64,000 bases of DNA from Dehalococcoidia bacterium (GTDB lineage: Bacteria > Chloroflexota > Dehalococcoidia > Bin125). A program made the position numbers and the translations under genes. The notes beneath the pieces are model-generated. The model did not search any database. It saw only the letters and a list, made by a program, of their open reading frames with translations, and was not told the origin of the DNA. The stretch spans positions 235 through 64,234 of the forward strand of contig JAJDZG010000129.1 in the NCBI GenBank assembly GCA_022824765.1, given 5' to 3'. Positions 1,441-21,374 of the stretch are shown here, piece by piece (positions within the stretch are counted from its first letter, which is position 1; each line of letters starts with the position of its first letter).

Positions 1441-3993
1441 ATGACCATCATTCGAACGTTGGCAATCGGGCTGTTGCTCGCACTGGCAGTCGGTCTGCTC
1501 AGTGCATGCAGCGACGACGAACCCGGGCAAGTGCAGACCGCCGATCAGCAGCAGGCTGATCAGCAGCAAGAACAGGCTGCCGCGACGCAGCAGGACGCTC
1601 AGCAACAGCAACAGCAATCGGCAGCGGCGGACGCGGCAGGACCCCTGAAGATCGCCTTCCTCGCCGACTTCTCCGGCGGACTCTCCGAGTACGGAGTCGC
1701 CATGCAGCGCGGCTTCGATCTCGCCATCAGCCAGGTCAACGCCGCCGGCGGCGTCTGGGGACAGCCGGTCGAGGTCGTCCTCGGCGACACGGGCCTTGAT
1801 CCGACCCGCGCCACCGAGGAAGCGCGACGCCTGATCGAAGTCGAGGGCGTCCACGCCATCGTCGGACCACTCGCCTCTTCGATCACCCTGGCCGTGGTCG
1901 AGTCCGTCGCCGCCGACGCCGGCGTGCTCGTCGTCTCGCCCTCCGCGACCTCCCCGCAGCTGACCATCGCCGACGACAACGACTTCCTCTTCCGCAGCTC
2001 GCCCTCCGACGCCGCACAGGGGCCGATCCTGGCCCAGCTCGCGGCCGATCAGGGCCACGCCCGCGTGGGCGTGCTCTATCGCAACGACGCCTGGGGACAG
2101 GGCCTGGCCGACGCCTTTGGTGACACCTGGGGCGGCGACGCGAACTTCGTCGCCATCGAAGTCGGGCGCGCCTCCTACGTCGCCGAACTGCAGCAGGCCG
2201 CCCAGGGCGGCGCCGACGCCCTCGTCGCGATCGCCTTCCCGCCCGAGTCCGAAGTGTTCATCCGTGAAGCCCTGGAGCAGGGCATCTTCGACCACTTCAT
2301 CTTCACCGACGGCAACAAGAGCCAGGACCTGATCGACGCCATCGGCGGTGACTACCTGAACGGCATGCAGGGGACCGCGCCAGTCGCCGGGCCCGAGACC
2401 GAGGCGCTGCGCAACTACCGCGCCGACTTCGCCGCCGAGATCGGCGACGGCGCCGACGAGCCGTTCGTCGCCCAGACCTACGACGCCGCCGTCGTCATCG
2501 CGCTCGCCGCCGAACACGCCGGCAGCGACGACCGATCCACGATCCGCGACAGCCTGCGCGCCGTCGCCGGACCACCCGGCGACGCATTCGCCGCCGGCGC
2601 CGACGGCATCGCCGCAGCGCTGGCAGCCATTCGCGCCGGCGACGACGTCGACTTCGCCGGCGCCTCCACATCTGTCGACTTCGACGCCGCCGGCGACATC
2701 ACCACCGGGTTCATCGGCGTCTGGCAATACGCCGAGGGCACCATCGAAGAGGTCGGCGTGACCGCCTTCGACCTCAGCGACGGGCCAGCATTGATCATGC
2801 CCGCGCCCTCCGATGCCCAGGACGATGACCAGGCGGCGGTGATGTCCGACGAGCCCCTGAAGATCGGCTTCCTCGCCGACTACTCCGGCGCGATCGCCGA
2901 GTTCGGCCCAGCCATCCAGACCGGCGTCGATCTGGCAATCTCCCAACTCAACGCCGCCGGCGGCATCCTCGGCCACGACGTGGAGCTCGTCATCGGCGAT
3001 ACCGGTCTCGACGCCACGCAGGCAGTCGAAGAAGCCCGCCGACTGATCGAGGTCGAGGGTGTCCACGCGATCGTTGGCCCGCTCGCCTCGTCGATCACCC
3101 TCTCCGTCGTGGAGTCGGTCGCCGCCGACGCTGGAGTCGTCGTGATCTCGCCCTCGGCGACCTCGCCGCAAATCAGCATCGCCGACGACAACGACTTCCT
3201 CTTCCGCAGCACCACGTCGGACGCCGCACAAGGCCCCGTACTCGCCCAGCTCGCCCTGGACGAGGGATTCTCCAGCGTCGGCGTGCTTTACCTCAACGAC
3301 GCCTACGGTCAGGGCTTGGCTGACGCCTTTGAGCTGGCCTATCGCGGAGACATCGCCCTCGTCGCAATCGAGGACGGGCAAACGTCCTACATCGCCGAAC
3401 TCGAGCGGTCGGCCCAGTTTGACGCGCAAGCCCTCGTCGCCATCGCCTTCCCCGCACAAGCGATGGTCTTCATCCGCGAGGCGCTCGAGCAAGGCATCTA
3501 CGACCAGTTCCTCTTCGTCGACGGCACCAAGAGCCAGGACCTCATCGACGCCATCGGCGGTCAGTACCTGGACGGCATGAGCGGCACCGCGCCCTCGCCA
3601 GGACCGGGATCCGATTCGCTCGCCGCCTACCAAGCCGCATACGAGGAAGAGTACGGCGAACTGTCACCGCTGCCGTTCATCGCCGAGGCCTATGACGCGA
3701 CCATCGCCATCGGTCTCGCCGCACAGGCCGCAGGCTCCGTCGAGTCCGCAGCGATCCGCGATCAACTGCGCAACGTCGCCGGTCCGCCGGGAGCGATCAT
3801 CAGCGCGTCGACCCAGATCGCCGACGCCCTCAACCTGATCCTCCTCGGCGAGGACATCAACTACGAAGGCGCCGCCACCACGCTCGACTGGAACGAGCAC
3901 GGCGATGTCACCACCGGGTTCATCGGCATCTGGCAGTTCGAGGACGGCACCATCGTTGAGGTCGGCGAAACGTCGTTCGACCTCGGCCAGTAA
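1441..3993 (+). CDS. ABC transporter substrate-binding lipoprotein, LivJ/LivK type (PBP type I). Internally duplicated, with two complete binding domains in one polypeptide.
   Basis: Signal peptide plus lipobox (LLSAC). A Gln-rich linker follows, then two about-390-aa repeats that each start PLKI[AG]FLAD[FY]SG. The segment EEARRLIEVEGVHAIVGPLASSITL[AS]VVESVAADAGV is near-identical between repeats. Both repeats end ...GFIG[VI]WQ[YF]. Confidence 0.85.
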   Translation: MTIIRTLAIGLLLALAVGLLSACSDDEPGQVQTADQQQADQQQEQAAATQQDAQQQQQQSAAADAAGPLKIAFLADFSGGLSEYGVAMQRGFDLAISQVNAAGGVWGQPVEVVLGDTGLDPTRATEEARRLIEVEGVHAIVGPLASSITLAVVESVAADAGVLVVSPSATSPQLTIADDNDFLFRSSPSDAAQGPILAQLAADQGHARVGVLYRNDAWGQGLADAFGDTWGGDANFVAIEVGRASYVAELQQAAQGGADALVAIAFPPESEVFIREALEQGIFDHFIFTDGNKSQDLIDAIGGDYLNGMQGTAPVAGPETEALRNYRADFAAEIGDGADEPFVAQTYDAAVVIALAAEHAGSDDRSTIRDSLRAVAGPPGDAFAAGADGIAAALAAIRAGDDVDFAGASTSVDFDAAGDITTGFIGVWQYAEGTIEEVGVTAFDLSDGPALIMPAPSDAQDDDQAAVMSDEPLKIGFLADYSGAIAEFGPAIQTGVDLAISQLNAAGGILGHDVELVIGDTGLDATQAVEEARRLIEVEGVHAIVGPLASSITLSVVESVAADAGVVVISPSATSPQISIADDNDFLFRSTTSDAAQGPVLAQLALDEGFSSVGVLYLNDAYGQGLADAFELAYRGDIALVAIEDGQTSYIAELERSAQFDAQALVAIAFPAQAMVFIREALEQGIYDQFLFVDGTKSQDLIDAIGGQYLDGMSGTAPSPGPGSDSLAAYQAAYEEEYGELSPLPFIAEAYDATIAIGLAAQAAGSVESAAIRDQLRNVAGPPGAIISASTQIADALNLILLGEDINYEGAATTLDWNEHGDVTTGFIGIWQFEDGTIVEVGETSFDLGQ

Positions 3994-4004
3994 CCCAACC
4001 AGCA

Positions 4005-4050
4005 CGACCCGGCGGGCAGTGACTGTGCGCTGTCCGCCGGGCACTGCCTG
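4005..4050. terminator. GC-rich stem-loop downstream of the first SBP gene; possible intrinsic terminator or attenuator
   Basis: CCCGGCGG...CCGCCGGG and the overlapping GGCAGTG...CACTGCC inverted repeats lie immediately after the stop at 3993. No T-tract, as expected in a high-GC genome. Confidence 0.35.
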
Positions 4051-4077
4051 CTCATCCCTCATGCCCAGCAACGGAGA

Positions 4078-5391
4078 GTGTGTTCCGTGATCATCCCGCG
4101 TGCGTGCTCCGTGCTCACCGTGCTCGCAGCGGCAGCGGTCGTCCTCATCGCCGCCTGCGGCGGCGATGATGCCGGCCAACAGACCGGCAATCCACCGCCG
4201 CAGCAATCGGCAGCCGAGACGGCAGCGCCAGCCGTTCAGCCGACCGAACCGCTCAAGCTCGGCTTCCTGCTCGACTTCAGCGGCCCCCTGGCCGACTACG
4301 GAGCCGAGCTGCAGCGCGGCTTCGACCTCGCCATCCAGCACATCAACGACGCCGGCGGCGTCTGGGGCATGCCCGTCCAGACCGCCGTCGGCGACACCAT
4401 GGTCGACCCCACGATTGCCGTTGAGGAAGCACGACGGCTGGTCGAAATCGAGGAAGTGCACGCCCTCGTCGGGCCGATGACCAGCGGCACGGCTCTGGCC
4501 GTCGCTGAGTCAGTCACCGGACCAGCCGGCATTCCAACCATCTCGCCCGTCGCCACGTCCGCGCAGATCACGGTGGCCGAAGACGACGACTTCCTCTTCC
4601 GCGTCTCCCTCGCCGATCACGTCGAGGGCCGCTACCTCGCCCAACTGGCGGCGCAACAGGGCTTCGACAACGTCGGGCTGCTCTACCGCGACGACGCCTT
4701 TGGGCAAGGCATGGCCGACTCCTTCGAGCAGCACTGGTCTGGCACCTTGCGCTCGATCGGCGTCAGCCCCGGCGCAACCAGCTTCACCGCCGAGCTGGAA
4801 CAGTCGATTGAGGCGGACGCAGAGGCGCTCGTGCTGATCGCCTTCCCGCCCGAGACGATCCTGATCCTGCGCGAGGCGCTCGAGCTCGGATACTACGACC
4901 AGTTCGTCTTCGGCGCGCCAGCCCGCTCGACTGCCATTCCGCAGTCAATCGGCGGCGATCTGGTCGCTGGCATGCGCGGCACCTACGTCGCCTCAGCACC
5001 TGAGAACGACTCATCGCGAGCCTGGGACGACGCGTTCCTCGCTGAGTACGGCGACGCGCCAAGCCTGCCCTACGTCAAGGAAGCCTACGACGCCACCATC
5101 GCCCTGGCGCTCGCCGCGCAAGCCGCCGGATCGACCGACGGCGCGGCCATCCGCGACCAGCTGCGCCGCATCGGCTCCGCGCCCGGCCTGATTGTGATCC
5201 CGACGCCCGACAGCCTCGCCGCCGGCCTGGCCGAGCTCGCGCGGGGCGGCGACGTCGACTACGAAGGCGCAGCCGTCAGCGCGGACTGGGACGAGAACGG
5301 TGACAGCACTCACGGCTACATCGGCATCTGGGAGTTCAACTCCGACAACACCATCTCCGACGTTGAGGTCATCGAGTACTCGAAGGAGTAG
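4078..5391 (+). CDS. ABC transporter substrate-binding lipoprotein, LivJ/LivK type, single domain
   Basis: 437 aa with lipoprotein signal (VLIAACGG) and the same PLKLGFLLDFSGPLADYG...VGDT...EEARRLVEIEEVHALVGP architecture. The start is GTG at 4078; an alternative GTG at 4087 has better spacing from GGAG. Confidence 0.8.
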   Translation: MCSVIIPRACSVLTVLAAAAVVLIAACGGDDAGQQTGNPPPQQSAAETAAPAVQPTEPLKLGFLLDFSGPLADYGAELQRGFDLAIQHINDAGGVWGMPVQTAVGDTMVDPTIAVEEARRLVEIEEVHALVGPMTSGTALAVAESVTGPAGIPTISPVATSAQITVAEDDDFLFRVSLADHVEGRYLAQLAAQQGFDNVGLLYRDDAFGQGMADSFEQHWSGTLRSIGVSPGATSFTAELEQSIEADAEALVLIAFPPETILILREALELGYYDQFVFGAPARSTAIPQSIGGDLVAGMRGTYVASAPENDSSRAWDDAFLAEYGDAPSLPYVKEAYDATIALALAAQAAGSTDGAAIRDQLRRIGSAPGLIVIPTPDSLAAGLAELARGGDVDYEGAAVSADWDENGDSTHGYIGIWEFNSDNTISDVEVIEYSKE

Positions 5392-5402
5392 AAGGAGTAA
5401 CC

Positions 5403-6716
5403 GTGCCGCACCGCTGGTTGATCCTGTTCGCGCTGGCTCTCGCGGCCTCTGTCATCACGCTCGCCGCGTGCAGCAGCGACGACCAGGCCGCACAAGCTCA
5501 ACAGACCCCGCAGACGCAGACTCAAACTGCTCAAGCGGCACAACAACGCGGCGACGAGATCGGGCCGCTCAAGATCGCGCTACTCGGCGACCTCAGCGGT
5601 GGACTGGCCGAAATCGGCGTCGAGATGCGCGACGGATTCCTGCTCGCCATCGACCACATCAATGCCGCCGGCGGCGTCTTCGGCCAGCCCGTCGAGTTTG
5701 TGATCGGCGACACCAACACCGATCCAACCATCGCCGTCGAAGAAGCACGCCGGATGATCGAGATCGAGGGCGCGCACGCCATCGTTGGCGCGCATTCCAG
5801 CACCAACTCGATCGCCGTCGCCGAGAGCATCACCGGCCCAGCCGGCATCCCGCAAATCTCGCCCGCGTCCTCTTCGCCCCAACTTGCCGTCGCCGCCGAC
5901 GATGACTTCCTCTTCCGCGCCACGCTCAACGACATCGTGCAGGGCCCGGCATTGGCCCAGCTGGTCGACGAGCAGGGATACCGCAACGTCGGCGTGCTCT
6001 ACCGCGACGACGCCTGGGGGCAGGGCATCGCCGAGACCTTCGAGGCCGCGTTCACCGAGACCTACGGCGGTCAGGTCCGCGCCGTCGCCGTCACTCCGCA
6101 GCAGGCCAGCTACCTCGCCGAAATCCAACAGTCGCTGGCCGACGATCCCGAGGCGATGGTCATGCTCGCCTACGTGCCAGAAGGGGCGATCATCCTGCGC
6201 GAGGCCATCGAGAACGGACTCTACGACCGCTTCGTGTTCGGGCCGACCAGCCGCAACTTCCAACTGATCGACGCGATCGGCGCCGAGTATCTCGCCGGGA
6301 TGCCCGGCACCGCACCAGGCACAGCGCCCGGCACCGAGTCGGCGCTGCTCTGGGAGGCCGCATTCCTCGCCAAGTACGAGCGCCCCTACGCCTTCCCCTA
6401 CACCAAGCAGGCCTACGACGCCGCGATCGCCATCGCGCTCGCCGCCGCAGCCGCACAATCGACCGACGGCCCGGCCATCCGAGACCAGCTGCGCCGAATC
6501 GGCGCCGCGCCCGGACAGCTGGTCGTCGCCGACATCGGCAGCATCCGTCAAGGACTCGAAGCTGCCCGCAATGGCGACGACATCGACTATGAGGGCGCCG
6601 CCCAATCGCTCGAATGGGACGAGAACGGCGACCTGGACCGCGGCTACGTCGGACTCTGGCGCTTCACGGACGATGGCGGCATTGAGGACACCGGCGTCAT
6701 CCCCTACGGCGATTGA
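5403..6716 (+). CDS. ABC transporter substrate-binding lipoprotein, LivJ/LivK type, single domain
   Basis: 437 aa with lipobox LAACSS and PLKIALLGDLSGGLAEIGVEMRDGF...EEARRMIEIEGAHAIVG. GAAGGAG lies 5 nt before the GTG start. Confidence 0.85.
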   Translation: MPHRWLILFALALAASVITLAACSSDDQAAQAQQTPQTQTQTAQAAQQRGDEIGPLKIALLGDLSGGLAEIGVEMRDGFLLAIDHINAAGGVFGQPVEFVIGDTNTDPTIAVEEARRMIEIEGAHAIVGAHSSTNSIAVAESITGPAGIPQISPASSSPQLAVAADDDFLFRATLNDIVQGPALAQLVDEQGYRNVGVLYRDDAWGQGIAETFEAAFTETYGGQVRAVAVTPQQASYLAEIQQSLADDPEAMVMLAYVPEGAIILREAIENGLYDRFVFGPTSRNFQLIDAIGAEYLAGMPGTAPGTAPGTESALLWEAAFLAKYERPYAFPYTKQAYDAAIAIALAAAAAQSTDGPAIRDQLRRIGAAPGQLVVADIGSIRQGLEAARNGDDIDYEGAAQSLEWDENGDLDRGYVGLWRFTDDGGIEDTGVIPYGD

Positions 6717-10269: not shown

Positions 10270-10650
10270 TCAGCCCGGCGGCCAGGACAGCGCGCGACCG
10301 CCCAGGACATGCAAATGCAAGTGCGGCACCGTCTGCCCAGCGTCCTCGCCGACGTTGATCACCACACGCCAGCCCGACTCCGCGATACCCTCAATCTCCG
10401 CAACCTTCCTGGCCGCCCGCAGCAGCACGCCGAGCAGCATCGACTCCCACTCGTCCGCCTCCTGCAGACCCCTCACGGGCATGCGCGGCACCACCAGCAC
10501 ATGCGTCGGCGCTTGCGGATTCAGATCGCGAAACGCCACGCAGTGATGATCCGCGTAGACGATGTCCGCCTCCACCTCACCCCGCACGATCGCACCGAAA
10601 ATGGTGTCCGATGACCGTTCGGCCAGCGTCGGATCGGTGTAGTCAACCAC
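10270..10650 (-). CDS. HIT (histidine triad) family protein
   Basis: Histidine triad HLHLHVLGG with an upstream [12 protein letters not shown]...HVLVVPR region. A GTG start at 10650 is preceded by AAGGGGG with a 6-nt spacer; the longest ORF reaches 10689. Confidence 0.75.
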
Positions 10651-10706
10651 GCGCTGCCCCCTTCGCCGATCGTTGCTGCGTTCTGCCACAGAGTAGCCTG
10701 TGGCAC

Positions 10707-11432
10707 ATGCCGCCCGACGCCCAGCAACCCAACCTCGTGCTCCTCCGACACGGCCAGAGCCAATGGAATCTGGAGAACCGCTTCACCGGCTGGATCGACG
10801 TACCACTGACTGATCAGGGCCGCGATGAGGCACGCCGCGCCGGCCGCCAGATTCGCGAGGCGGGCATCGAACTCGACGCCGCCTGGACCTCAGTCTTGAC
10901 CCGCGCTATCCACACCCTCTGGCTGGTCCTCGACGAGATCGACGCCCCCTGGTTGCCCGTCCGTCGCGATTGGCGCCTCAACGAACGCCACTACGGCGGC
11001 CTGCAAGGGCTGAACAAGGCAGAGACTGCGGCCAGGCACGGCGACGACCAGGTCCACATCTGGCGCCGCTCCTACGACATCCCGCCACCGCCCCTGGACG
11101 CCGACGACCCCAGCCATCCACGCTTCGACCGCCGCTATCGAGACATCCCGCGCGATGCGCTGCCTTCAGCCGAATCGCTGCAGCTGACCCTCGAGCGCGT
11201 CCTGCCCTGCTGGAATGCAGAGATCGCGCCGGCCCTCGCCAATGGTCAGCGCCTGCTGATCGCCGCCCACGGCAACAGCATCCGCGCCATCGTGAAGCAC
11301 CTCGACCGCATCTCTGACGCTGACATCACCGATCTCAACATCCCCACCGGCATGCCGCTGGGCTACACCCTCTCCCCCCAGCTAGGAGTGCTCAACCGCG
11401 GCTACCTAGCCCCCGCCGAGCCGAACCAGTAG
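10707..11432 (+). CDS. gpmA: 2,3-bisphosphoglycerate-dependent phosphoglycerate mutase
   Basis: [29 protein letters not shown] and [20 protein letters not shown] are canonical GpmA motifs. The ATG at 10707 matches the expected N-terminus. Divergent from the HIT gene. Confidence 0.85.
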
Positions 11433-11445
11433 ACACCCAGCCCCC

Positions 11446-11560
11446 ACCGTCATTCCAGCGCCCCCTCCATCATTCCAGCGCCCCCGTCATTTCAGCGCCT
11501 CCCCGTCATTCCAGCGCCCCCCGTCATTCCAGCTTGTCTGGAATCTCGCCCCACAACGTC
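11446..11560. repeat. Intergenic tandem repeat array (about 19-bp period, GTCATTCCAGCGCCCCC units) ending in a hairpin unit ATTCCAGCttgtCTGGAAT
   Basis: Five imperfect tandem copies sit directly after the gpmA stop. The last copy carries a 7-bp inverted repeat (ATTCCAG/CTGGAAT). The same unit family recurs at 13712-13850. Confidence 0.6.
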
Positions 11561-11632
11561 CCACCAAATCCCAAACGAGACGCCAAGACACGCTGGAACG
11601 ACCGACTCTCCACCAGCCTCCCCAGCGACACC

Positions 11633-12505
11633 CTACGCCGTCACCGCCTCGCGGTACTGGCGGATCGCCTCGATGTGCGCGTCGATGTCCGGCAGGCCGG
11701 CATTCATCGTCGCAATCGACATCGCGGTCGCGCCCATCGCGCCCCAACGTTCCGCGTGAGACACCCACAGCTCGGGATTGCCGCCGCGGAACTGCGCCTG
11801 CGGCTCGATCGGGAAACTGTCAGCGTCGCGGCCGTGCTCTCGCAGATGACCGCGCAACGTCTCGACCATCGCCTCCGAGTCCGCGTTGGGCGCGCCGATC
11901 GGGAACCACCCGTCGCCGATCCGAGCCGTGCGCTCCAGCTGCTTGGGGTGCGCACCGCCGAACCAGACTTCGATCGGCTCCGTCGGGCGCGGCTCGATGC
12001 CGGCCGCTCGCACGCTGTGGAACTCGCCCTCGAAGTCCACCAGGTGCTCGCTCCACAGCGCGCGCATCAACGCGATCTGCTCCTCCTGGCGGCGGCCCCG
12101 ATTGCGGAAGTTCTCGCCCAACACCGCGTACTCGACCTGGTTCCAGCCGCTGCCCACGCCGAGTCGGAAGCGGTTGCCCGAAAGCACCGCCAGCTGCGCC
12201 GCCTGCTTGGCCACCAGCGCCGTCTGACGCTGCGGCAAGACCAGCACGGCCGTCGCCAGACCCAGCGTGCGCGTGTGCGCGGCAATGAAGCCCAGCGTCA
12301 CGAACACCTCGTGGAACGGATGCTCGTCCGTGTACGGACCAGTCATCTGATGCACCGACGGGTCGGCGCCCAGCACGTGGTCGTAGATCAACAGGTGGTC
12401 AAAGCCCAATCCCTCGACGGCCTGCGCGTAGTCTCGGATCGCGCCGGGGTCCGCGCCAATCTCGTTGGTCGGCAGCACCGCGCCCAAGCTCAGATTCGTG
12501 GCCAT
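11633..12505 (-). CDS. LLM class F420-dependent / luciferase-like oxidoreductase
   Basis: 290 aa with luciferase-like monooxygenase features (GFDHLLIYDHV, LGVGSGWNQVEY, WFGGAHPKQLERTARIGDGWFP). Confidence 0.85.
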   Translation of the reverse strand: MATNLSLGAVLPTNEIGADPGAIRDYAQAVEGLGFDHLLIYDHVLGADPSVHQMTGPYTDEHPFHEVFVTLGFIAAHTRTLGLATAVLVLPQRQTALVAKQAAQLAVLSGNRFRLGVGSGWNQVEYAVLGENFRNRGRRQEEQIALMRALWSEHLVDFEGEFHSVRAAGIEPRPTEPIEVWFGGAHPKQLERTARIGDGWFPIGAPNADSEAMVETLRGHLREHGRDADSFPIEPQAQFRGGNPELWVSHAERWGAMGATAMSIATMNAGLPDIDAHIEAIRQYREAVTA

Positions 12506-12556
12506 CTTGCATCCTTTCGCGACGGACCACCAGCGGGACCGCCCGACTCGATTCTA

Positions 12557-12586
12557 GTCGCCCCGAGTCGCCCCGAGTCGCCGCGC
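12557..12586. promoter_or_regulatory. Three tandem 10-bp direct repeats ((T/G)AGTCGCCCC) in a divergent promoter region
   Basis: The run tagtcgcccc gagtcgcccc gagtcgccgc lies between the divergently oriented LLM (start 12505) and CitE-like (start 12632) genes. Candidate regulator binding site. Confidence 0.3.
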
Positions 12587-12631
12587 TGTCGTACCCTCGA
12601 AGCACCGCAGCCCGACCTCTCGGAGACCACC

Positions 12632-13690
12632 ATGCCCACGCCCCGTCAGTTTCTGCGCCCGCTCGTGCTCGGCGCCCCCGATCCGCCGCGCGACATCCCC
12701 ACGACGCCCTCGCGGATGATCCACTTCTTCGATCCGTCCAACGAGCGCATTCGCGCCCGACTGCCGCAGCTCGCTCCAACCGTCGACATCCTGCTCGGCA
12801 ACCTCGAGGACGCGATCCCACCCTCTGCCAAAGAAGCGGCCCGCAACGGACTGATCGAGGTTGGCCAAACCCTCGACCTGGGCCAGACCAAACTCTGGAC
12901 CCGCGTCAATGCCGTCGACAGCCCCTGGTTCCTCGATGACATGCTGCAGCTGACCGAGTCAATCGGCGGCGTCCTCGACACCGTCATGCTGCCCAAAGTC
13001 AATGGACCCGAAGAGATTCGCTTCCTCGACCTGTTGCTCGCCCAGCTTGAAGCGCGCAACGGTCTGACCCAACCGATCCTGATTCACGCCATCCTCGAGA
13101 CCGCGCAAGGCGTCTCCAACGTCGAGGCCATCGCCCAATCGAGCCCGCGCCTGCAAGGAATGAGCCTCGGACCGTCCGACCTGGCCGCCTCGCGGCGGAT
13201 GAAGACCACACGCGTCGGCGGACCGCACCCCGGCTACGTCGTCCGCGATGACGCCAATCCCGACGACGACGCCACGCCGCGCACGCCCTACATTCAGGAC
13301 CCCTGGCACTACACGCTGGCCCGCATGGTCGACGCCTGCGCGGCCAACGAGATCTATCCCTTCTACGGCCCCTTCGGAGACTTTTCCGATCCCATCGGCT
13401 GCGAAGACCAGTTCCGCGCCGCTTTCATCCTCGGTTGCGTCGGCGCTTGGACGCTGCATCCCAACCAGATTCCGATCGCCAAGTCCGTGTTCCGTCCCAA
13501 CGCCGACGAAGTCGCCTTCGCCCGTCGCGTCGTGGCCGCCATGGAGGAAGCCGGCGGCGCCGGAGGAGTCGCCGTCGTCGACGGCAAAATGCAGGACGAC
13601 GCCACCTACAAGCAATGCCAGGTCCTCCTCGACCTCGCAAACATGCTCGCAGAGAAGGACCCAGAGCTCGCCGATCTCTACCACGAGTAG
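12632..13690 (+). CDS. HpcH/HpaI aldolase / citrate lyase beta subunit (CitE)-like acyl-CoA lyase family protein
   Basis: 352 aa with CitE-like features (MIHFFDPSNERIRARLPQ...VDILLGNLEDAIPP...KEAARNG). GGAGA lies 5 nt before the ATG at 12632. The 718-aa ORF in the track (from 11534) has a spurious N-terminal part antisense to the LLM gene. Confidence 0.8.
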   Translation: MPTPRQFLRPLVLGAPDPPRDIPTTPSRMIHFFDPSNERIRARLPQLAPTVDILLGNLEDAIPPSAKEAARNGLIEVGQTLDLGQTKLWTRVNAVDSPWFLDDMLQLTESIGGVLDTVMLPKVNGPEEIRFLDLLLAQLEARNGLTQPILIHAILETAQGVSNVEAIAQSSPRLQGMSLGPSDLAASRRMKTTRVGGPHPGYVVRDDANPDDDATPRTPYIQDPWHYTLARMVDACAANEIYPFYGPFGDFSDPIGCEDQFRAAFILGCVGAWTLHPNQIPIAKSVFRPNADEVAFARRVVAAMEEAGGAGGVAVVDGKMQDDATYKQCQVLLDLANMLAEKDPELADLYHE

Positions 13691-13711
13691 CGCTCCCGTC
13701 CCTCCAAAGAA

Positions 13712-13850
13712 CAGACCATCATTCCACCCCCTCACCGTCTTTCCAGCTTGTCTGGAATCTCGCCCGGCTACACACCCGAACTCCGTCATTCCAGCCCCCC
13801 AACCGTCATTCCAGCCCCTCACCGTCTTTCCAGCTTGTCTGGAATCGCGC
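13712..13850. repeat. Second copy of the tandem-repeat/hairpin family (GTCATTCCAGCCCC units plus two GTCTTTCCAGCTTGTCTGGAATC hairpin units)
   Basis: Lies directly after the CitE-like stop. It shares the TTCCAGCTTGTCTGGAATCTCGCC hairpin and the GTCATTCCAGC core with the 11446-11560 array. Confidence 0.6.
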
Positions 13851-13905
13851 CTGCAACGACGCTCAGCGCAGTGATCGATCAGCTGCACTCACAACCTCTC
13901 TGACG

Positions 13906-16674
13906 TCAGTTCGCCCGGCCTCGCGAGGCCGCCTCCTCGTACGCCTGTCCCGTCAGCCGACGAATGATCTGCACCGAGTACGTCGAGAGCACCCATTTGC
14001 CCGCCATCGCGGCGGCCGCCGCCACGATTACAATCGCCCACTCCGCAGCCGACAGCGGTGAGAAGTCGAAGAACTCCCGCAGCGGCGGCGTGTAGAGCGT
14101 CAGCACAAACACGCCCAACAACGCAGCCCCGAAGAACGTCACCAGCGCTGGACGCATCAAGCTGTCGCGCGTCGCGCCCTGGTAGCCAATCACCTCCACC
14201 ATGTAGGCCAGCCCCACGATCCCGATCGTCGTGCTGACCAGCGTGCGCGCGTCCTCCACCGGCCGGCCAAGGATTCCCTCGGTCAGCAAGTGCACCGCCA
14301 CAGCCGAGACCGCCAGCGCGAGCGATGCAGGAATCGCAAAACGCATCGTCGAGGAGAGAAAGTCCCGCCCTGCCGATCGCGGCGGACGCGTCAGCGTGAT
14401 GAACACCGCCGGCACGCCGAGCGTGAACAGTGCCGTCAATGACCCGTGCCGCGGCAGGAACGGAAACTCGAGGCTCATCATGTTCGATATGAAGATGATC
14501 AGGAACGCGTAGAAGCTCTTGGTCACGAACAGCTTGGACAGCTGCGATGCGTTGCCCAGCACGTTCTGCGCGATCTCCGCGCCCCGCACGAGTGCCTCGA
14601 ACGAGTCGTTGCGCAGCACAATCGCGGCCACACCCCGCGCCGTGCTCGAGCCCGACTCCATCGCCACCCCGACATCCGCCTGGCGCAGCGCCCGCACGTC
14701 GTTGGCCCCGTCGCCGACCATCGCCACATAGTGACCATTCGCCTGCAACGCCGCGACGACCCGCTCCTTCTGCTGCGGCGCGATCCGTCCAAAGACCGAG
14801 TGCTGCTCGACCGCGTCAGCCAGCTCATCGTCCGTCAACCGATCAAGCTCGACACCAGTGATCAGGCCGCCCGGCAGCGTGACGCCCAACTGCTGCACGA
14901 GCGCCGCCACCGTCGCCGGATGGTCACCGCTAATGATCTTGGGTTCGATGCCCAGATCGTCCATCATCCGGAACGTATCTGCGATCTCCGGGCGCAGCTC
15001 GTCGGCAACGGTGACCAGCGCGACCACCCGCAGCTCAGGCAGCGTGTCCGACTCCGCGTCGGGCATGCTCGCCGCTTCGGCGAAGACCACGCCGCGCAAT
15101 CCGCGCTGCGCCGCTCGCTCATACTCGGCCAGTAGCTGTGCGCGGACGTCATCGTCCTCGCCGCCCGCCGGACTCAGCAGACGCTCCGCCGCGCCGAGCA
15201 CGAAGACGCGATGTTCCGCGCCCAACCTCAGGTGCGCCGCGCTCCAGCGACGCTCCGAGTTGAACGGCTCGTCCGCCAGCAACACGGCGCCGTTCGACTG
15301 TGCAGCGAACGCCGCCGCGAGCGCCTCGGCGGTCTTGTTGTTGGCCGACGTCGCGCCCGCGAACGCACCCAACCAGCCGGCCAGCGCACGACCGCCCGGC
15401 GCCCAGCGAATGTCGTCGACCTGCAGCCGATTGGCCGTGATCGTGCCTGTCTTGTCCAGACAGACAATATCCAGATAGTTGAGCGCTTCGACGGCGGTGT
15501 TGTCCTGCACAATCGCACCCAGCCTCGACACGCGCAGCGCACCCACGGCAAACGCGACCGTGAAGCCCAGCATCAGACCTTCCGGCACCACCGACGTCGC
15601 CGTCGCAATCGTCGCGCGAACCGCTTCATCGAACGCGCGGCCGGTGATCAGGAACGAAATCAGAATCAGCAACCCGAGAATGAACGTGGCCACGATCAGG
15701 CCGTCGAGAATGCGCTTGAAGCGCAACTGGAGCGGCGTTTCGGTGCGTTTCAACTCCCGCGCTTCGCGGGTCTCCCGGACGGCCCGCGACTCGCCGCCGA
15801 CGCGCGCCGCGCGGTAGTAGCACGACCCGCCCACGCAGAACGCTCCCGACTCCAGTTCCTCGCCCGGACCGCGACGCACCGAGTTGGTCTCGCCGGTCAA
15901 GATCGACTCGTCCAGCTCCGCCTCTTCCCACACGATCGGCCCATCGGCGACCACCTGATCGCCCGAGCGGAGAACGAGCAGGTCATCTGCGACGACATCC
16001 GTAGCCGGCACATCGAGCTCATAGCCTTCGCGCACCACAGTCGCCGTCGGCGCAGTCAACGCCACCAACTGACGCAGATTTCGCGTCGCGCGAATCTCCT
16101 GGAATGTCCCAACCAGCACGTTCGCGATCACCACGATCCCCACGAACGCGGCATCCTGCAGATGATCCGTCTTCTGCTCCGTGACCGCGAGCACGAGCAA
16201 GATCCCGATCAGCCCAAAGAGAATCAGGTTGAAGTACGTGAAGACATTGGAAATGACCACATCGAGGTCCGAGCGCTGCCTCGAGGTGTCACGGTTGACG
16301 CGGCCGTCCAGCATCCGCTGCGCGACATCAGCCTCGCTCAGACCCAGCAGCTCAGGCGGTTCGGATCGACGCTCCGTTCGCGGCGCGCGCCTGACCTGAT
16401 CGGGAGGGTCAGCAGTCAGCGGCGCAGACGGCACAAGCGGCGCAGACGGCACCACCGCCAGCGGAGCCATCGATGCGGCGCCGCCCAACTCGCCGCTCGG
16501 TTCGTTGGACCAGTCCGAGAGCCAGCCGGCCTGCGCCCGACCTTCAAGCTCTGCCAGAGCAGCCGTCACCTGCCGCAACGGCTCGGGATCGAGCGGCGGC
16601 TGACCTTCCTCGAGCGCCGCCAGGTCAAACAACGGCAGCGCGTCGGCGTCATCGAACGGCGCGGGAGTCGTCAT
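13906..16674 (-). CDS. Cation-transporting P-type ATPase (HAD superfamily, type II-like) with an N-terminal Pro/Ala-rich extension of about 100 aa
   Basis: The P-type motifs are present (DKTGTIT at CLDKTGTITANRL, GDGANDVRALRQADVGVAM), along with multiple TM helices. The start is uncertain because no RBS precedes the ATG at 16674. Confidence 0.85.
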   Translation of the reverse strand: MTTPAPFDDADALPLFDLAALEEGQPPLDPEPLRQVTAALAELEGRAQAGWLSDWSNEPSGELGGAASMAPLAVVPSAPLVPSAPLTADPPDQVRRAPRTERRSEPPELLGLSEADVAQRMLDGRVNRDTSRQRSDLDVVISNVFTYFNLILFGLIGILLVLAVTEQKTDHLQDAAFVGIVVIANVLVGTFQEIRATRNLRQLVALTAPTATVVREGYELDVPATDVVADDLLVLRSGDQVVADGPIVWEEAELDESILTGETNSVRRGPGEELESGAFCVGGSCYYRAARVGGESRAVRETREARELKRTETPLQLRFKRILDGLIVATFILGLLILISFLITGRAFDEAVRATIATATSVVPEGLMLGFTVAFAVGALRVSRLGAIVQDNTAVEALNYLDIVCLDKTGTITANRLQVDDIRWAPGGRALAGWLGAFAGATSANNKTAEALAAAFAAQSNGAVLLADEPFNSERRWSAAHLRLGAEHRVFVLGAAERLLSPAGGEDDDVRAQLLAEYERAAQRGLRGVVFAEAASMPDAESDTLPELRVVALVTVADELRPEIADTFRMMDDLGIEPKIISGDHPATVAALVQQLGVTLPGGLITGVELDRLTDDELADAVEQHSVFGRIAPQQKERVVAALQANGHYVAMVGDGANDVRALRQADVGVAMESGSSTARGVAAIVLRNDSFEALVRGAEIAQNVLGNASQLSKLFVTKSFYAFLIIFISNMMSLEFPFLPRHGSLTALFTLGVPAVFITLTRPPRSAGRDFLSSTMRFAIPASLALAVSAVAVHLLTEGILGRPVEDARTLVSTTIGIVGLAYMVEVIGYQGATRDSLMRPALVTFFGAALLGVFVLTLYTPPLREFFDFSPLSAAEWAIVIVAAAAAMAGKWVLSTYSVQIIRRLTGQAYEEAASRGRAN

Positions 16675-19491: not shown

Positions 19492-20415
19492 TTACACCAA
19501 CCCGGGCCGAATGCTGTTGCGCGGGAATCCGCCCGCACCCAACGTGTGCGGCCACACGTCGAACAGCGTGTCAATCTCGATCCGGTTGTCGTCGAAATGC
19601 AGGTATCGCTCGAGCACCGGTTCCGAGAACAGCGAGATGCGGTGCCCGCTCGCACCGAAGATGCGACCATTGGCTGCATCCGACTGATCGGAGGCGAGCC
19701 AGGCCACAATCGGCGCCACATTCTTCGGATCACGCGCCGTGCCCGATGCGGACTCTGACGGAGCCGGCCCCTCCTGCTCGACGCCGCGGCCCCGATCGGT
19801 CATCCGAGTCGACGCGCCGGGCGCAATGCAGTTTGTCGTGACCCCGTAGCGTCCCAGCGCACCGACGTTCGAGCGCATCAAGCCCAGCTTGGCCGCATGC
19901 GCCGCCGAGTAGTTGGGCTGTCCCGCCGAGCCGCGAATGCCAGCATCCGAGGTGAAGTAGATGATCCGACGATGACCGCCCTCGCGGTTCGCACGCCAAT
20001 AGATCGAGGCGAACTTGGTCGGCGCGAAGCAACCCTTCAGGTGCGCTCGCACCAGACCGTCCCACTCGTCCTCGGTCATGTTGAAGATCATCCGCTCGCG
20101 CAGAATGCCGTGCGCACAGACGAGCACATCGAGTCCGCCGAACTCATCAATCGCGGTCTGAATCATCCGCTCCGCGGTGTCCATGTCGGCCACATCGCCG
20201 ACGAAGGGCACCGCCTCGCCGCCCGCGTCGCGAATCTCCTGCACGATCGCCTCGACCTTGGACGCGTCCATGCCAAATCGACCCTCGACGTCAAAGCCGG
20301 TATCCGCCACGACCACCTTCGCTCCCTGCTCGCCGAAGACGCGGCACAGATTGGATCCAATCCCGCCCGCGCCGCCGGTGATGATGCAGATTCGTCCGTC
20401 CAGATGCTTCGTCAT
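19492..20415 (-). CDS. SDR-family NAD(P)-dependent oxidoreductase, MFE-2 / 17beta-HSD4-like dehydrogenase domain with a C-terminal extension
   Basis: TGGAGGIGS Rossmann motif, a catalytic YxxxK region (NYSAAHAAK) and an FDVEGRFG...VVADTG pattern like the peroxisomal multifunctional enzyme 2 N-domain. Confidence 0.85.
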   Translation of the reverse strand: MTKHLDGRICIITGGAGGIGSNLCRVFGEQGAKVVVADTGFDVEGRFGMDASKVEAIVQEIRDAGGEAVPFVGDVADMDTAERMIQTAIDEFGGLDVLVCAHGILRERMIFNMTEDEWDGLVRAHLKGCFAPTKFASIYWRANREGGHRRIIYFTSDAGIRGSAGQPNYSAAHAAKLGLMRSNVGALGRYGVTTNCIAPGASTRMTDRGRGVEQEGPAPSESASGTARDPKNVAPIVAWLASDQSDAANGRIFGASGHRISLFSEPVLERYLHFDDNRIEIDTLFDVWPHTLGAGGFPRNSIRPGLV

Positions 20416-20459
20416 CTCGTTCCGCCTCTCGCTATGCCCTGCCTCAAGTCGTGTCCCGC

Positions 20460-21374
20460 CTATGGGAACTGGCGCGGCGGCGGACCGACCCCTTGCAACT
20501 CGAGCGTCTGCGGCATCAGCTCAAACAGCGTGTCGATGTCCCAGTACGGCTCGACGTTCCAGATCGTCTGCTCCCACTCCGGCTCTCGCCAGATCGTGAT
20601 CTTGTTCCCCGTCGTGCCGACGACGCGGCCCGAGATGTCAGCGCTCGCATCCGATGCCAGGAACGTCACCGCCGGCGTGACGTTGTTGGGGTCCATCGCC
20701 GTGCCCGACGCGGTCAGGCTGGGTGCATCCGCCGACTGGTCGACACCGCGTCCGCGGTCGGTCATCCGCGTCGACGCGCCCGGCGAGATGCAGTTGGACG
20801 TCGCGCCGTAGCGCTCGAGCGCCTCCGCGTTGGACAGCGACAGGCCAATCTTGCCCGCATGAGCGGCCGAATAGTTGGGCTGCCCCGCTTCGCCGCGCAC
20901 CCCAGCCGACGAGGTGAAGTAGATGATCCGCCGATTGCCCTTGTCGCGATTCGCTCGCCAATGGATCGCAGCGAACTTGGTCGGCGCAAAGCAGCCCTTG
21001 AGGTGAATGCGAACCAGGCCGTCCCACTCCTCCTCGGTCATGTTGAAGATCATCCGCTCGCGCAGAATGCCATGCGCGCAGACGAGGATGTCAAGGTCGC
21101 CGAAGGTCTCGATCGCCGTCTGGACCGCGCGCTCTGCTGTCTCCATCTCCGCGATGTCCCCGGCGACGGCAGTCGCCTGTCCACCCGCGGCGATGATCTC
21201 GTCGACGACAGCCTGGACCTTCGAGGGGTCCATGCCCGCGCGTCCCTCGACGTCAAAGCCGGTGTCGCAGGCGACGACCGCCGCTCCCTCTTCGGCAAAC
21301 ACCCGGCAAATGTGCGAGCCCATCCCGCCCGCACCGCCAGTCACCAAAGCCACCTTGCCATCCAAATGTCCCAT
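20460..21374 (-). CDS. SDR-family oxidoreductase, tandem paralog of the preceding gene
   Basis: About 60% identical to the 19492-20415 product (LVTGGAGGMGSHICRVFAEEGA..., NYSAAHAGK). Confidence 0.85.
   Translation of the reverse strand: MGHLDGKVALVTGGAGGMGSHICRVFAEEGAAVVACDTGFDVEGRAGMDPSKVQAVVDEIIAAGGQATAVAGDIAEMETAERAVQTAIETFGDLDILVCAHGILRERMIFNMTEEEWDGLVRIHLKGCFAPTKFAAIHWRANRDKGNRRIIYFTSSAGVRGEAGQPNYSAAHAGKIGLSLSNAEALERYGATSNCISPGASTRMTDRGRGVDQSADAPSLTASGTAMDPNNVTPAVTFLASDASADISGRVVGTTGNKITIWREPEWEQTIWNVEPYWDIDTLFELMPQTLELQGVGPPPRQFP

What the first reader, a model, noticed from the sequence alone, without database searches (positions are those of the whole stretch)
11433..13905. A family of short tandem hairpin repeats brackets a two-gene LLM-oxidoreductase / CitE-like lyase unit
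Two intergenic arrays (11446-11560 and 13712-13850) are built from 19-20-bp units sharing the core GTC(A/T)TTCCAGC. Both contain the hairpin unit TTCCAGCttgtCTGGAAT(C)TCGCC, once in the first array and twice in the second. They sit immediately after the gpmA and CitE-like stops and flank the divergently transcribed LLM gene (11633-12505) and CitE-like gene (12632-13690). They could be REP/MITE-like elements or terminator hairpins. They could also be footprints of a small mobile cassette that delivered the two genes. Proline-rich pseudo-translations of these repeats appear in the ORF track and should not be annotated as proteins.
Basis: seen in the sequence. Interest (0 to 1): 0.55.

Follow-up and report, generated by a model that had tools for sequence, protein, structure and literature searches.

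The report
Nuclease-target hairpin repeats flanking two genes
The two repeat arrays are real and are an undescribed variant of a recently described, cross-phylum class of DNA hairpin repeats that small Ssn (GIY-YIG) nucleases recognise on single-stranded DNA; they were inserted into two gene-end gaps of a Chloroflexota genome and then expanded locally, and they do not mark a mobile gene cassette.

Summary
The window has 11 hits to GTCATTCCAGC (1 mismatch allowed) against 1.2 expected. It has three exact copies of TTCCAGCTTGTCTGGAAT against 0 expected. All lie in two 3'-3' intergenic gaps.

The motif is not local. The 18-mer occurs in more than 104 genome contigs from many phyla. There it is nearly always GTC-ATTCCAG-CTTGT-CTGGAAT-C. 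It is intergenic, usually paired with an inverted partner, and its stem covaries.

In four independent loci, units of this type flank or surround a ~100-aa GIY-YIG gene. That protein is 41-47% identical to the NTS-flanked 94-aa Neisseria protein that I take to be SsnA. The closest known kind is therefore NTS/SRM repeats plus Ssn single-strand nucleases (Chenal 2025). The ends CGTCATTCC...GGAATC are identical to NTS. The published SRM search pattern nevertheless misses this variant.

Relatives keep the order gpmA-LLM-CitE-ATPase, one of them with 41-45-nt gaps and no repeats. The repeats are therefore the insertions, and the cassette idea fails. The arrays have no terminator features.

Two things remain open. 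One is the origin of the tandem 5' half-units (18-20 nt period). The other is whether this genome encodes an Ssn: none lies in the 64 kb.

The kind is known and the variant is new. Interest is moderate.

The parts
11449..11515 (+). Array A: four tandem 5' half-units (GTCATTCCAGCG at 11449; ATCATTCCAGCG at 11469; GTCATTTCAGCG at 11486; GTCATTCCAGCG at 11505), separated by C-rich, G-poor spacers. The period is 17-20 nt.
11523..11545 (+). Array A full hairpin unit, GTC-ATTCCAG-CTTGT-CTGGAAT-C, preceded by C and followed by TCG. By analogy with NTS, this is the forward (Ssn-recognised) strand.
   Evidence: DNA hairpin -5.9 kcal/mol, z = -3.7
11576..11602 (-). Decayed inverted partner arm of array A. 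On the + strand it reads CGAGACGCCAAGACACGCTGGAACGAC; its reverse complement is GTCGTTCCAGCGTGTCTTGGCGTCTCG. It pairs with 11523-11549 to give a doublet hairpin with a 26-nt loop.
   Evidence: (I13, I14)
13718..13728 (+). Array B block 1: decayed half-unit ATCATTCCACC. A still weaker remnant, GTCCCTCCAAA, lies at 13698-13708.
13737..13759 (+). Array B block 1 full unit, GTC-TTTCCAG-CTTGT-CTGGAAT-C. The A-to-T change leaves a 6-bp stem.
   Evidence: -4.5 kcal/mol
13785..13815 (+). Array B block 2: two half-units, GTCATTCCAGC at 13785 and at 13805.
13824..13846 (+). Array B block 2 full unit, GTCTTTCCAGCTTGTCTGGAATC. It is followed by GCGCCTGCAACGAC, which may be a remnant of a right arm.
10611..11432 (+). 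gpmA-like histidine phosphatase gene. Homologues are about 255 aa, so the true start is probably later than 10611. Its stop lies 16 nt before array A.
11633..12505 (-). Luciferase-like (LLM) oxidoreductase gene. It is an ancestral neighbour and not part of the repeat element.
12632..13690 (+). HpcH/HpaI (CitE-like) lyase gene. It is an ancestral neighbour. Its stop lies 5 nt before array B.
13906..16674 (-). P-type ATPase gene, convergent with the CitE-like gene.

Best explanation
The arrays are copies of a cross-phylum hairpin repeat of the NTS/SRM class. These are short oriented palindromes that single-domain GIY-YIG nucleases of the Ssn family bind only as single-stranded DNA and cut a few nucleotides upstream.

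The unit here is (C/T)GTC + 7-bp stem ATTCCAG/CTGGAAT + invariant loop CTTGT + C. Its outer parts, CGTCATTCC...GGAATC, are identical to the Neisseria NTS.

In other genomes the gene-carrying form is hairpin unit - ssn gene - inverted hairpin unit. The common form is a gene-less inverted doublet of about 60 nt, which looks like a MITE or REPIN.

In this Chloroflexota lineage such elements landed in two neutral 3'-3' intergenic gaps. They then grew in place by tandem duplication: an 18-20-nt '5' flank + 5' half' unit in both arrays, and an 87-nt block in array B.

Shown here: the repeat family, its hairpin covariation, its intergenic habit, its physical association with Ssn homologues elsewhere, and the fact that the repeats rather than the genes are the insertion.

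Inferred: if this genome encodes a cognate Ssn, the + strand of the three full units would be bound when single-stranded and nicked in the C-rich spacer upstream. Recombination or uptake of DNA spanning the LLM/CitE pair could then be affected, as NTS-gene-NTS does in Neisseria. If the genome has no Ssn, the arrays are decaying relics.
For: The motif is far above chance in the window.

It is widespread. Nitrospirota/Thermodesulfovibrionia dominate, with Ignavibacteria, a Dehalococcoidia MAG, Fibrobacteria and CPR also present. I estimate that about 17 hits would be expected by chance for a collection of that size; no tool computed this. Of 106 hits, 97 are preceded by GTCA, and only 12 lie inside long ORFs against 71% for random positions. 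An inverted partner lies within 130 nt in 64 of 104 cases.

The hairpin covaries. Partner units found without requiring complementarity are 96.5% Watson-Crick paired, against 74.5% for shuffled partners. Six of 7 stem pairs show changes on both sides, and 0 of 500 shuffles reach the covariation score. GTCA, the loop CTTGT and the 3' C are invariant.

The units are physically linked to Ssn-type genes. They flank GIY-YIG genes of about 100 aa in L055, L012 and L039 and surround one in L124-L126, which are three samples of one locus.

Those proteins are 41-47% identical (E 1e-23 and 2e-28) to a 94-aa N. gonorrhoeae protein that is itself flanked by canonical NTS. That protein is 97% identical to the N. 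meningitidis 94-aa GIY-YIG protein. This matches the published description of SsnA (PMC11893778).

Chloroflexota do carry Ssn with SRM units: an Anaerolineales MAG contig (L113) shows this.

The Dehalococcoidia contig L079 has the same architecture as array A, including the CCCCCACC spacer, a half-unit, a full unit and an inverted arm.

Synteny shows the genes are ancestral and the repeats are inserted.

A sister metagenome scaffold (99.6-99.9% identical) has 100-N gaps near or at both arrays, about 130 nt upstream of array A and about 20 nt into array B. This is consistent with repeats breaking short-read assembly.
Against: No Ssn/GIY-YIG ORF exists in the 64-kb window or in 20-kb stretches of three relatives. 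A cognate enzyme in this genome is therefore unproven.

The published degenerate SRM search sequence does not match these units.

Only two loci are seen in 64 kb. A metagenome scan for the GC-rich-lineage version found nothing relevant, so the genome-wide copy number is unknown.

Several units are degenerate: GTCTTTCC, ATCATTCC, GTCATTTC and the decayed right arm.

The invariant loop differs from N. meningitidis, where loop identity was dispensable (PMC11893778).

No cleavage or binding data exist for this variant.
Confidence: 0.7

Rival explanations
1. A REP/REPIN-type system: palindromic repeats spread and maintained by a domesticated Y1 (HUH) tyrosine transposase (RAYT), with no link to Ssn.
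For: The family has the REPIN look. It forms inverted doublets of a self-palindromic unit, it is strictly intergenic, its stems covary, and it builds clustered mosaic-like arrays.
Against: The only gene repeatedly bracketed by the units is a GIY-YIG gene. No transposase family appears among the 25 most frequent Pfam families (each with 2 or more members) in 144 nearest-neighbour ORFs. The conserved 5' end is GTCA, not the GTAG/GTGG of REPs. The outer sequence is identical to NTS, for which Ssn binding has been shown experimentally (PMC11893778).
Confidence: 0.07
2. Purely local slippage products: minisatellite-like expansions with no wider family and no function.
For: Tandem periods of 18-20 nt and an 87-nt block duplication show that local duplication did occur. 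Relative L107 has none of it.
Against: The same 23-nt unit occurs in more than 100 other genomes with a conserved architecture. It also occurs at an unrelated locus in another Chloroflexota genome, with the same spacer. Slippage explains how the arrays grew, not where the unit came from.
Confidence: 0.05
3. Transcription terminators or 3'-end mRNA stabilisers for the convergent gene pairs.
For: The arrays lie immediately after stop codons in convergent gaps. The array A doublet folds well as RNA (z = -5.1). REP-like elements are known to stabilise 3' ends (general knowledge).
Against: There is no T/U tract and no GC-rich stem. The terminator scan finds nothing at either array. Array B as a whole folds no better than shuffles (z = -0.1). 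Relatives manage with 41-45-nt gaps that lack the motif.
Confidence: 0.08
4. Boundary scars or recombination sites of a mobile two-gene cassette (integron attC-like or dif-module-like) that brought in the LLM and CitE genes.
For: The only two arrays in 64 kb bracket exactly this gene pair, and both are in the same orientation.
Against: The gene order HIT-gpmA-LLM-CitE-ATPase-ABC is conserved in three relatives at about 80% gpmA identity. L107 has it without any repeat. There is no integrase or recombinase nearby, and no attC (GTTRRRY) or 11-6-11 dif-type core (sequence inspection). I estimate that two arrays would fall this close together by chance roughly 7-13% of the time; no tool computed this.
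Confidence: 0.03

Closest known systems
NTS / SRM (Ssn-related motif) repeats with SsnA, the GIY-YIG cd10448 single-strand-specific nucleases (Chenal et al., Nat Commun 2025, PMC11893778)
   Same: It is an oriented hairpin repeat. The 5' CGTCATTCC and the 3' GGAATC are identical to NTS (CGTCATTCCCGCGMAVGCGGGAATCYRG). The C after the palindrome and the GTC before it, which are critical for binding and cleavage, are both present. Position -1 is non-G. The repeats are intergenic, cluster around genes, and show the repeat-ssn-repeat architecture in gene-carrying copies. The associated proteins are 41-47% identical to the NTS-flanked Neisseria protein.
   Different: The stem is 7 bp (ATTCCAG) rather than about 8 bp (ATTCCCGC). 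The loop CTTGT is invariant. The published degenerate SRM pattern does not match. The main hosts are Nitrospirota, Ignavibacteria, CPR and Chloroflexota, none of which the paper's main text mentions. Units mostly occur as inverted doublets whose two stems always differ. Here there are also tandem arrays of 5' half-units. No ssn gene is seen in this window.
REP / BIME / REPIN elements with RAYT (Y1 HUH) transposases
   Same: They are short intergenic palindromes that form inverted doublets and mosaic clusters. They are recognised as single-strand hairpins by a small enzyme whose gene is itself flanked by the repeats.
   Different: The enzyme class is different: a hydrolytic GIY-YIG nuclease rather than an HUH tyrosine transposase. 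The conserved 5' motif is GTCA rather than GTAG. Exact sequence identity across phyla is unusual for REPs, which are species-specific.
Neisseria dRS3 repeats (ATTCCC-N8-GGGAAT)
   Same: They share the ATTCC...GGAAT palindrome core. About half of dRS3 copies are NTS according to PMC11893778.
   Different: dRS3 is defined without the oriented flanks. It is known as a target for phage or IS integration in Neisseria, and nothing of that sort is seen here.

Membership tests
NTS/SRM (Ssn-related motifs) | Oriented unit: a non-G base, then GTC, then a palindromic stem starting A-T, a short loop, and a C immediately 3' of the palindrome. | tested here: met
   The three full units read C-GTC-(A/T)TTCCAG-CTTGT-CTGGAAT-C. 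The family alignment shows GTCA and the 3' C invariant. Position -1 is G in only 1% of units.
NTS/SRM (Ssn-related motifs) | Match to the published degenerate search sequence HGTCWYN(0-2)YYVSBRHN(0-5)WNVSBRGN(0-2)RNCYNB. | tested here: not met
   A regular expression built from the pattern matches canonical NTS controls. It matches none of the window units or the cross-phylum consensus unit. The window has 2 unrelated hits against 0.7 in shuffles.
NTS/SRM (Ssn-related motifs) | Hairpin structure maintained in evolution. | tested here: met
   96.2% of cells are paired, 6 of 7 pairs change on both sides, and 0 of 500 shuffles reach the covariation score. Anchor-only partner units are 96.5% Watson-Crick paired against 74.5% for shuffled partners. 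DNA folding gives -4.5 to -5.9 kcal/mol.
NTS/SRM (Ssn-related motifs) | Units of the same type flank genes for Ssn-family (single-domain, ~94-120 aa GIY-YIG) proteins. | tested here: met
   Seen in L055, L012, L039 and L124-L126. The L012 and L055 proteins are homologous to the NTS-flanked 94-aa Neisseria protein, with E 2e-28 and 1e-23. This was met in other genomes, not in this window.
NTS/SRM (Ssn-related motifs) | A cognate ssn gene in the same genome. | tested here: inconclusive
   No GIY-YIG ORF was found in the 64-kb window or in L105-L109 (HMM search). The rest of the genome is not available. Chloroflexota do have Ssn with SRM units (L113).
NTS/SRM (Ssn-related motifs) | Many dispersed intergenic copies per genome. 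| tested here: inconclusive
   There are two loci in 64 kb, both intergenic. The sister assembly breaks near or at both arrays. At family level, 94 of 106 copies lie outside long ORFs. The metagenome scan for the lineage-specific form gave no relevant hit.
NTS/SRM (Ssn-related motifs) | Bound only as single-stranded DNA of one strand and cut a few nucleotides upstream. | not testable with these tools
   This needs a purified enzyme and oligonucleotides. It is known only for Neisseria and Wolbachia homologues (PMC11893778).
REP/REPIN-RAYT | A Y1 (HUH) transposase gene flanked by the repeats, and a 5' GTAG/GTGG tetranucleotide. | tested here: not met
   No transposase family appears among the 25 most frequent Pfam families (each with 2 or more members) in 144 nearest-neighbour ORFs, so a singleton would not have been listed. 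Clustering of neighbouring ORFs gives only GIY-YIG as a closely adjacent recurrent family. The 5' end is GTCA.
Intrinsic terminator | GC-rich stem followed by a T/U run. | tested here: not met
   The scan of 11300-14000 finds no site at either array. The stems are AT-rich and are followed by C-rich sequence.
Mobile gene cassette (integron or dif-module type) | The bracketed genes are absent from the same site in relatives, and a cognate recombinase or core sites are present. | tested here: not met
   Synteny is conserved in L107, L108 and L109. L107 has the genes without the repeats.

The most novel reading that the evidence does not exclude
The CTTGT-loop units may be the ends of a so far unrecognised kind of bacterial mobile element, driven by a GIY-YIG (Ssn) nuclease. 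On this reading, hairpin - ssn - inverted hairpin is the autonomous form and the ~60-nt doublets are its non-autonomous derivatives. The tandem 5' half-unit arrays, which always break at the first loop base and carry a conserved G-poor spacer shared between unrelated loci, would then be footprints of repeated Ssn cutting and repair. Alternatively they would be extra cleavage registers that pair in turn with the single 3' arm, as the published split-NTS experiments allow.
Probability: 0.2. Interest if true: 0.75.

Novelty: new variant of a known kind. Interest (0 to 1): 0.45.

Why it matters
The result extends the Ssn/SRM system, described in 2025 mainly from Pseudomonadota, in three ways:
- It adds a sequence variant that the published search pattern cannot see.
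- It shows that this variant is common in Nitrospirota, Ignavibacteria and CPR, and present in Chloroflexota.
- It adds structural features not reported before: an invariant loop, inverted doublets whose two stems always differ, and tandem 5' half-unit arrays.

For annotation, it explains a class of proline-rich pseudo-ORFs and assembly breaks. It also tells annotators not to call the LLM/CitE pair a mobile cassette.

For biotechnology, each Ssn/motif pair is a potential new site-specific single-strand DNA cutter. The proteins of L055, L012 and L039 come with a defined candidate target.

Tried and rejected
- Rfam search of 11000-14300 at E up to 10: only a chance miRNA hit.
- Literature search by sequence strings: primers only.
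- Metagenome scan with the GC-rich-lineage form GTCWTTCCAGCTTGTCTGGAATCKCG: one low-GC CPR contig, irrelevant to the window's lineage.
- Viral-contig scan of the 18-mer: two hits without the GTCA prefix, judged to be chance.
- Protein search with the pseudo-translations of array A, meant to find other arrays called as genes: 1104 candidates, none scored.
- Search for a GIY-YIG ORF in the window and in the relatives' loci: none.
- Nested-insertion origin of the half-units: rejected, because no displaced 3' halves (CTGGAATC) lie downstream of array A.
- Orientation relative to GC skew. In other genomes the unit lies more often on the G-rich strand (58 against 30, p = 0.004). In the window and L079 it lies on the C-rich strand, and the signal is confounded with gene orientation, so I did not use it.
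- Supplementary tables of the Ssn paper: not held.
- Follow-up papers on Ssn: none found in the library.
Full report
**1. Observation**

- Array A (11447-11550) has four 5' half-units: GTCATTCCAGCG, ATCATTCCAGCG, GTCATTTCAGCG and GTCATTCCAGCG. They are separated by C-rich spacers of 5-9 nt and followed by one full unit, GTCATTCCAGCTTGTCTGGAATC (11523-11545).
- Array B (13696-13860) consists of two ~87-nt blocks that are 83% identical. Each block is half, half, then a full unit GTCTTTCCAGCTTGTCTGGAATC.
- Tandem Repeats Finder gives periods of 18/37 nt and 20 nt.
- GTCATTCCAGC with up to 1 mismatch occurs 11 times against 1.2 expected. The 18-mer TTCCAGCTTGTCTGGAAT occurs 3 times exactly against 0 expected.
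- The genes are as stated: His_Phos_1/gpmA-like (+), luciferase-like oxidoreductase (-), HpcH/CitE-like (+) and P-type ATPase (-). Both arrays occupy convergent 3'-3' gaps.
- One new point: array A has a decayed inverted arm at 11576-11602. It pairs with the full unit into a long hairpin (RNA z = -5.1; DNA -15 and -18 kcal/mol on the two strands).
- No other non-coding repeat family is present in the 64 kb. The remaining repeats are paralogous genes.

**2. The motif is a widespread family**

I estimate about 17 chance hits for a collection of that size; no tool computed this.
- Nitrospirota/Thermodesulfovibrionia dominate. Ignavibacteria, Fibrobacteria, candidate phyla (Gracilibacteria, Peribacteria), a gammaproteobacterial MAG and a Dehalococcoidia MAG are also present.
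- In register, the sequences read GTCATTCCAGCTTGTCTGGAATC, then 9-83 nt, then an inverted second unit such as GATTCCGGACAAGCCGGAATGAC.
- 97 of 106 hits carry the GTCA prefix. Only 12 of 106 lie inside an ORF of 150 aa or more, against 71% for random positions.
- 64 of 104 have an inverted partner within 130 nt, with a median gap of 20 nt.
- Partner units located only by the loop ACAAG and the terminal GAC are 96.5% Watson-Crick paired, against 74.5% for shuffled partners.
- In an alignment of 19 distinct units, GTCA, the loop CTTGT and the 3' C are invariant. Six of the seven stem pairs show compensatory changes, and 0 of 500 shuffles reach the covariation score.
- The 5' flank is G-poor over about 11 nt, and G at position -1 occurs in only 1% of units.

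**3. The associated enzyme**

Clustering the ORFs of the 104 loci showed one family lying right at the units: a small GIY-YIG protein.

- In L055 the gene sits between GTCATTCCAGCTTGTCTGGAATC and GATTCCGGGCAAGCCGGAATGAC.
- In L012 it sits between GTCATTCTGG-(long loop)-CCAGAATC and GATTCCAGACAAGCTGGAATGAC.
- In L039 it sits between GTCACTCCGACTTGTTCGGAGTC and its inverted copy.
- All three proteins hit only Pfam GIY-YIG.
- A further homologue (L124-L126) is surrounded by five CTTGT-type units.

A literature search led to Chenal et al. 2025 (PMC11893778).

- The Neisseria NTS repeat is CGTCATTCCCGCGMAVGCGGGAATCYRG. Its relatives in other bacteria are called SRM.
- These repeats flank ssnA, a 94-aa single-domain GIY-YIG nuclease.
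- SsnA binds the repeat only as single-stranded DNA of one strand and cuts a few nucleotides upstream.
- The GTC before the palindrome is critical for cutting, and the C after it is critical for binding.
- NTS-flanked DNA transforms less well when SsnA is present.

I located the N. gonorrhoeae 94-aa protein, flanked by canonical NTS, in L112.

- It is 97% identical to the N. meningitidis protein.
- It is 47% identical to the L012 protein (E 2e-28) and 41% identical to the L055 protein (E 1e-23).
- I identify it as SsnA from its length, its NTS flanks and the species. I could not compare an accession or the sequence with the paper.

The window units share CGTCATTCC...GGAATC with NTS and keep both critical positions.

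**4. Differences from the published family**

- The published degenerate SRM pattern matches canonical NTS controls but not these units. The stem is one pair shorter and the loop begins CTT.
- The paper's main text does not mention Chloroflexota, Nitrospirota or tandem and half units.
- The loop is invariant here, whereas loop identity was dispensable for the N. meningitidis enzyme.
- The two units of a doublet never share the same stem (0 of 64).

**5. Cassette hypothesis**

- gpmA homologues identify the organism as Chloroflexota.
- Three related contigs (gpmA 81-84% identical) keep the order HIT-gpmA-LLM-CitE-P-ATPase-ABC.
- L107 has gaps of 41 and 45 nt with no repeat.
- L108 and L109 carry a different hairpin repeat in the same gaps. 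L109 also has an inverted NTS-like unit after gpmA.
- The genes are therefore ancestral. The repeats are lineage-specific insertions into gaps that attract hairpin elements.
- A sister scaffold (99.6-99.9% identical) has 100-N gaps near or at both arrays: about 130 nt upstream of array A and about 20 nt into array B.

**6. Other readings**

- Terminators: there is no T-tract and no hit in the scan. Array B as a whole folds no better than shuffles.
- REP/RAYT: no transposase family appears among the 25 most frequent Pfam families (each with 2 or more members) in 144 nearest-neighbour ORFs, and the 5' motif is GTCA.
- Pure slippage: this cannot explain a unit shared with more than 100 genomes. 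It also cannot explain the Dehalococcoidia contig L079, which has the same architecture and the same CCCCCACC spacer at an unrelated locus.

**7. Half-unit arrays**

- A truncated unit 18-24 nt upstream of a full unit recurs in other phyla: L002, L004, L013, L018, L046 and L079.
- Nested insertion is unlikely, because no displaced 3' halves are found downstream.
- Local tandem duplication is the simplest mechanism and fits the 87-nt block duplication.
- Two points remain unexplained: the constant break point at the first loop base, and the conserved spacer.
- The published finding that a 5' half and a 3' half supplied separately still support cutting leaves one possibility open. Each half-unit might pair with the single 3' arm and provide an additional cutting register. 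This is inference only.

**8. Limits**

- No GIY-YIG ORF lies in the window or in the relatives' 20-kb stretches.
- Chloroflexota do carry Ssn with SRM units (L113), but a cognate enzyme in this genome is unproven.
- Several units are degenerate, so the arrays may be decaying.
- Scans aimed at the window's own lineage found nothing relevant.

**9. Verdict**

- The arrays are a new sequence and structural variant of the known NTS/SRM-Ssn kind.
- Interest is moderate (0.45).
- The most novel reading still open is a GIY-YIG-driven mobile element whose cutting and repair leave half-unit arrays. I put it at about 0.2 probability.

Noticed in passing
window 1-64000: GC skew of the + strand is uniformly -0.12 to -0.18 across the whole window, whatever the gene orientation. 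This is an unusually strong strand asymmetry. The arrays reach -0.4 to -0.56.
   Followed up: partly
window 12556-12582: A perfect 10-nt tandem repeat, AGTCGCCCCG x2.7, lies in the 126-nt divergent promoter region between the LLM and CitE-like genes.
   Followed up: no
window 1642-6700 and 19687-20948: There are four tandem paralogous periplasmic-binding-protein (Peripla_BP_6) genes and two adjacent short-chain dehydrogenase paralogues.
   Followed up: no
L108 7646-7832; L109 10774-10914 and 15157-15625: Relatives carry a different hairpin repeat (GACCCTCACCCTnnCCCTCTCCCAGAGGGAGAGGGGA) in the same two convergent gaps. L109 also has an inverted NTS-like unit, GATTCCCGTGCTGGGCGCGGGCATGAC, after gpmA. 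These gaps therefore act as hotspots for hairpin elements.
   Followed up: partly
L109 11847-13809: Terminase-like genes (Terminase_6N/Terminase_3) are inserted between the LLM and CitE-like genes in one relative.
   Followed up: no
L001-L104 (genome loci): In inverted doublets the partner of an ATTCCAG unit never has the same stem (0 of 64). The partners are ATTCTGG, ATTCCGG, ATGCTGG, ATTGCGG, ATTCCGA and others.
   Followed up: partly
L006, L014, L025, L026, L028, L033, L070, L075, L077, L078, L086, L089, L090, L097: In Nitrospirota many doublets are embedded in a larger repeated context, ACTAAGGAGTTCATAAGTAAGnCCACATTG ... ATGTGAC. It occurs several times per genome, which suggests a composite element.
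   Followed up: no
L012 2653-2700 (- strand); L114 1455-1503: The unit just upstream of some ssn genes has an enlarged loop. The loop contains a Shine-Dalgarno-like GAGGAG or GAGGAC run, and the unit ends ...CCAGAATC one base before the ATG, so the hairpin overlaps the translation start region.
   Followed up: no
L114-L123, the 10-12 nt 5' of GTCATTCTGGGGACG: A Parcubacteria population has two alleles of the block immediately upstream of the unit: GCTTTCAGTT and CGCCTCCCCGCT. The C-rich allele resembles the window spacer GCGCCTCCCC and lies where Ssn would cut.
   Followed up: partly
L105 8877-8976 and 11087-11186: A metagenome scaffold of the same population (99.6-99.9% identical) has 100-N gaps near or at both arrays. 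The gene caller there produced a spurious 43-aa ORF next to one gap.
   Followed up: yes
window 16418-16452: A perfect 18-nt tandem duplication, AGCGGCGCAGACGGCACA x1.9, lies near the 5' end of the P-type ATPase gene.
   Followed up: no
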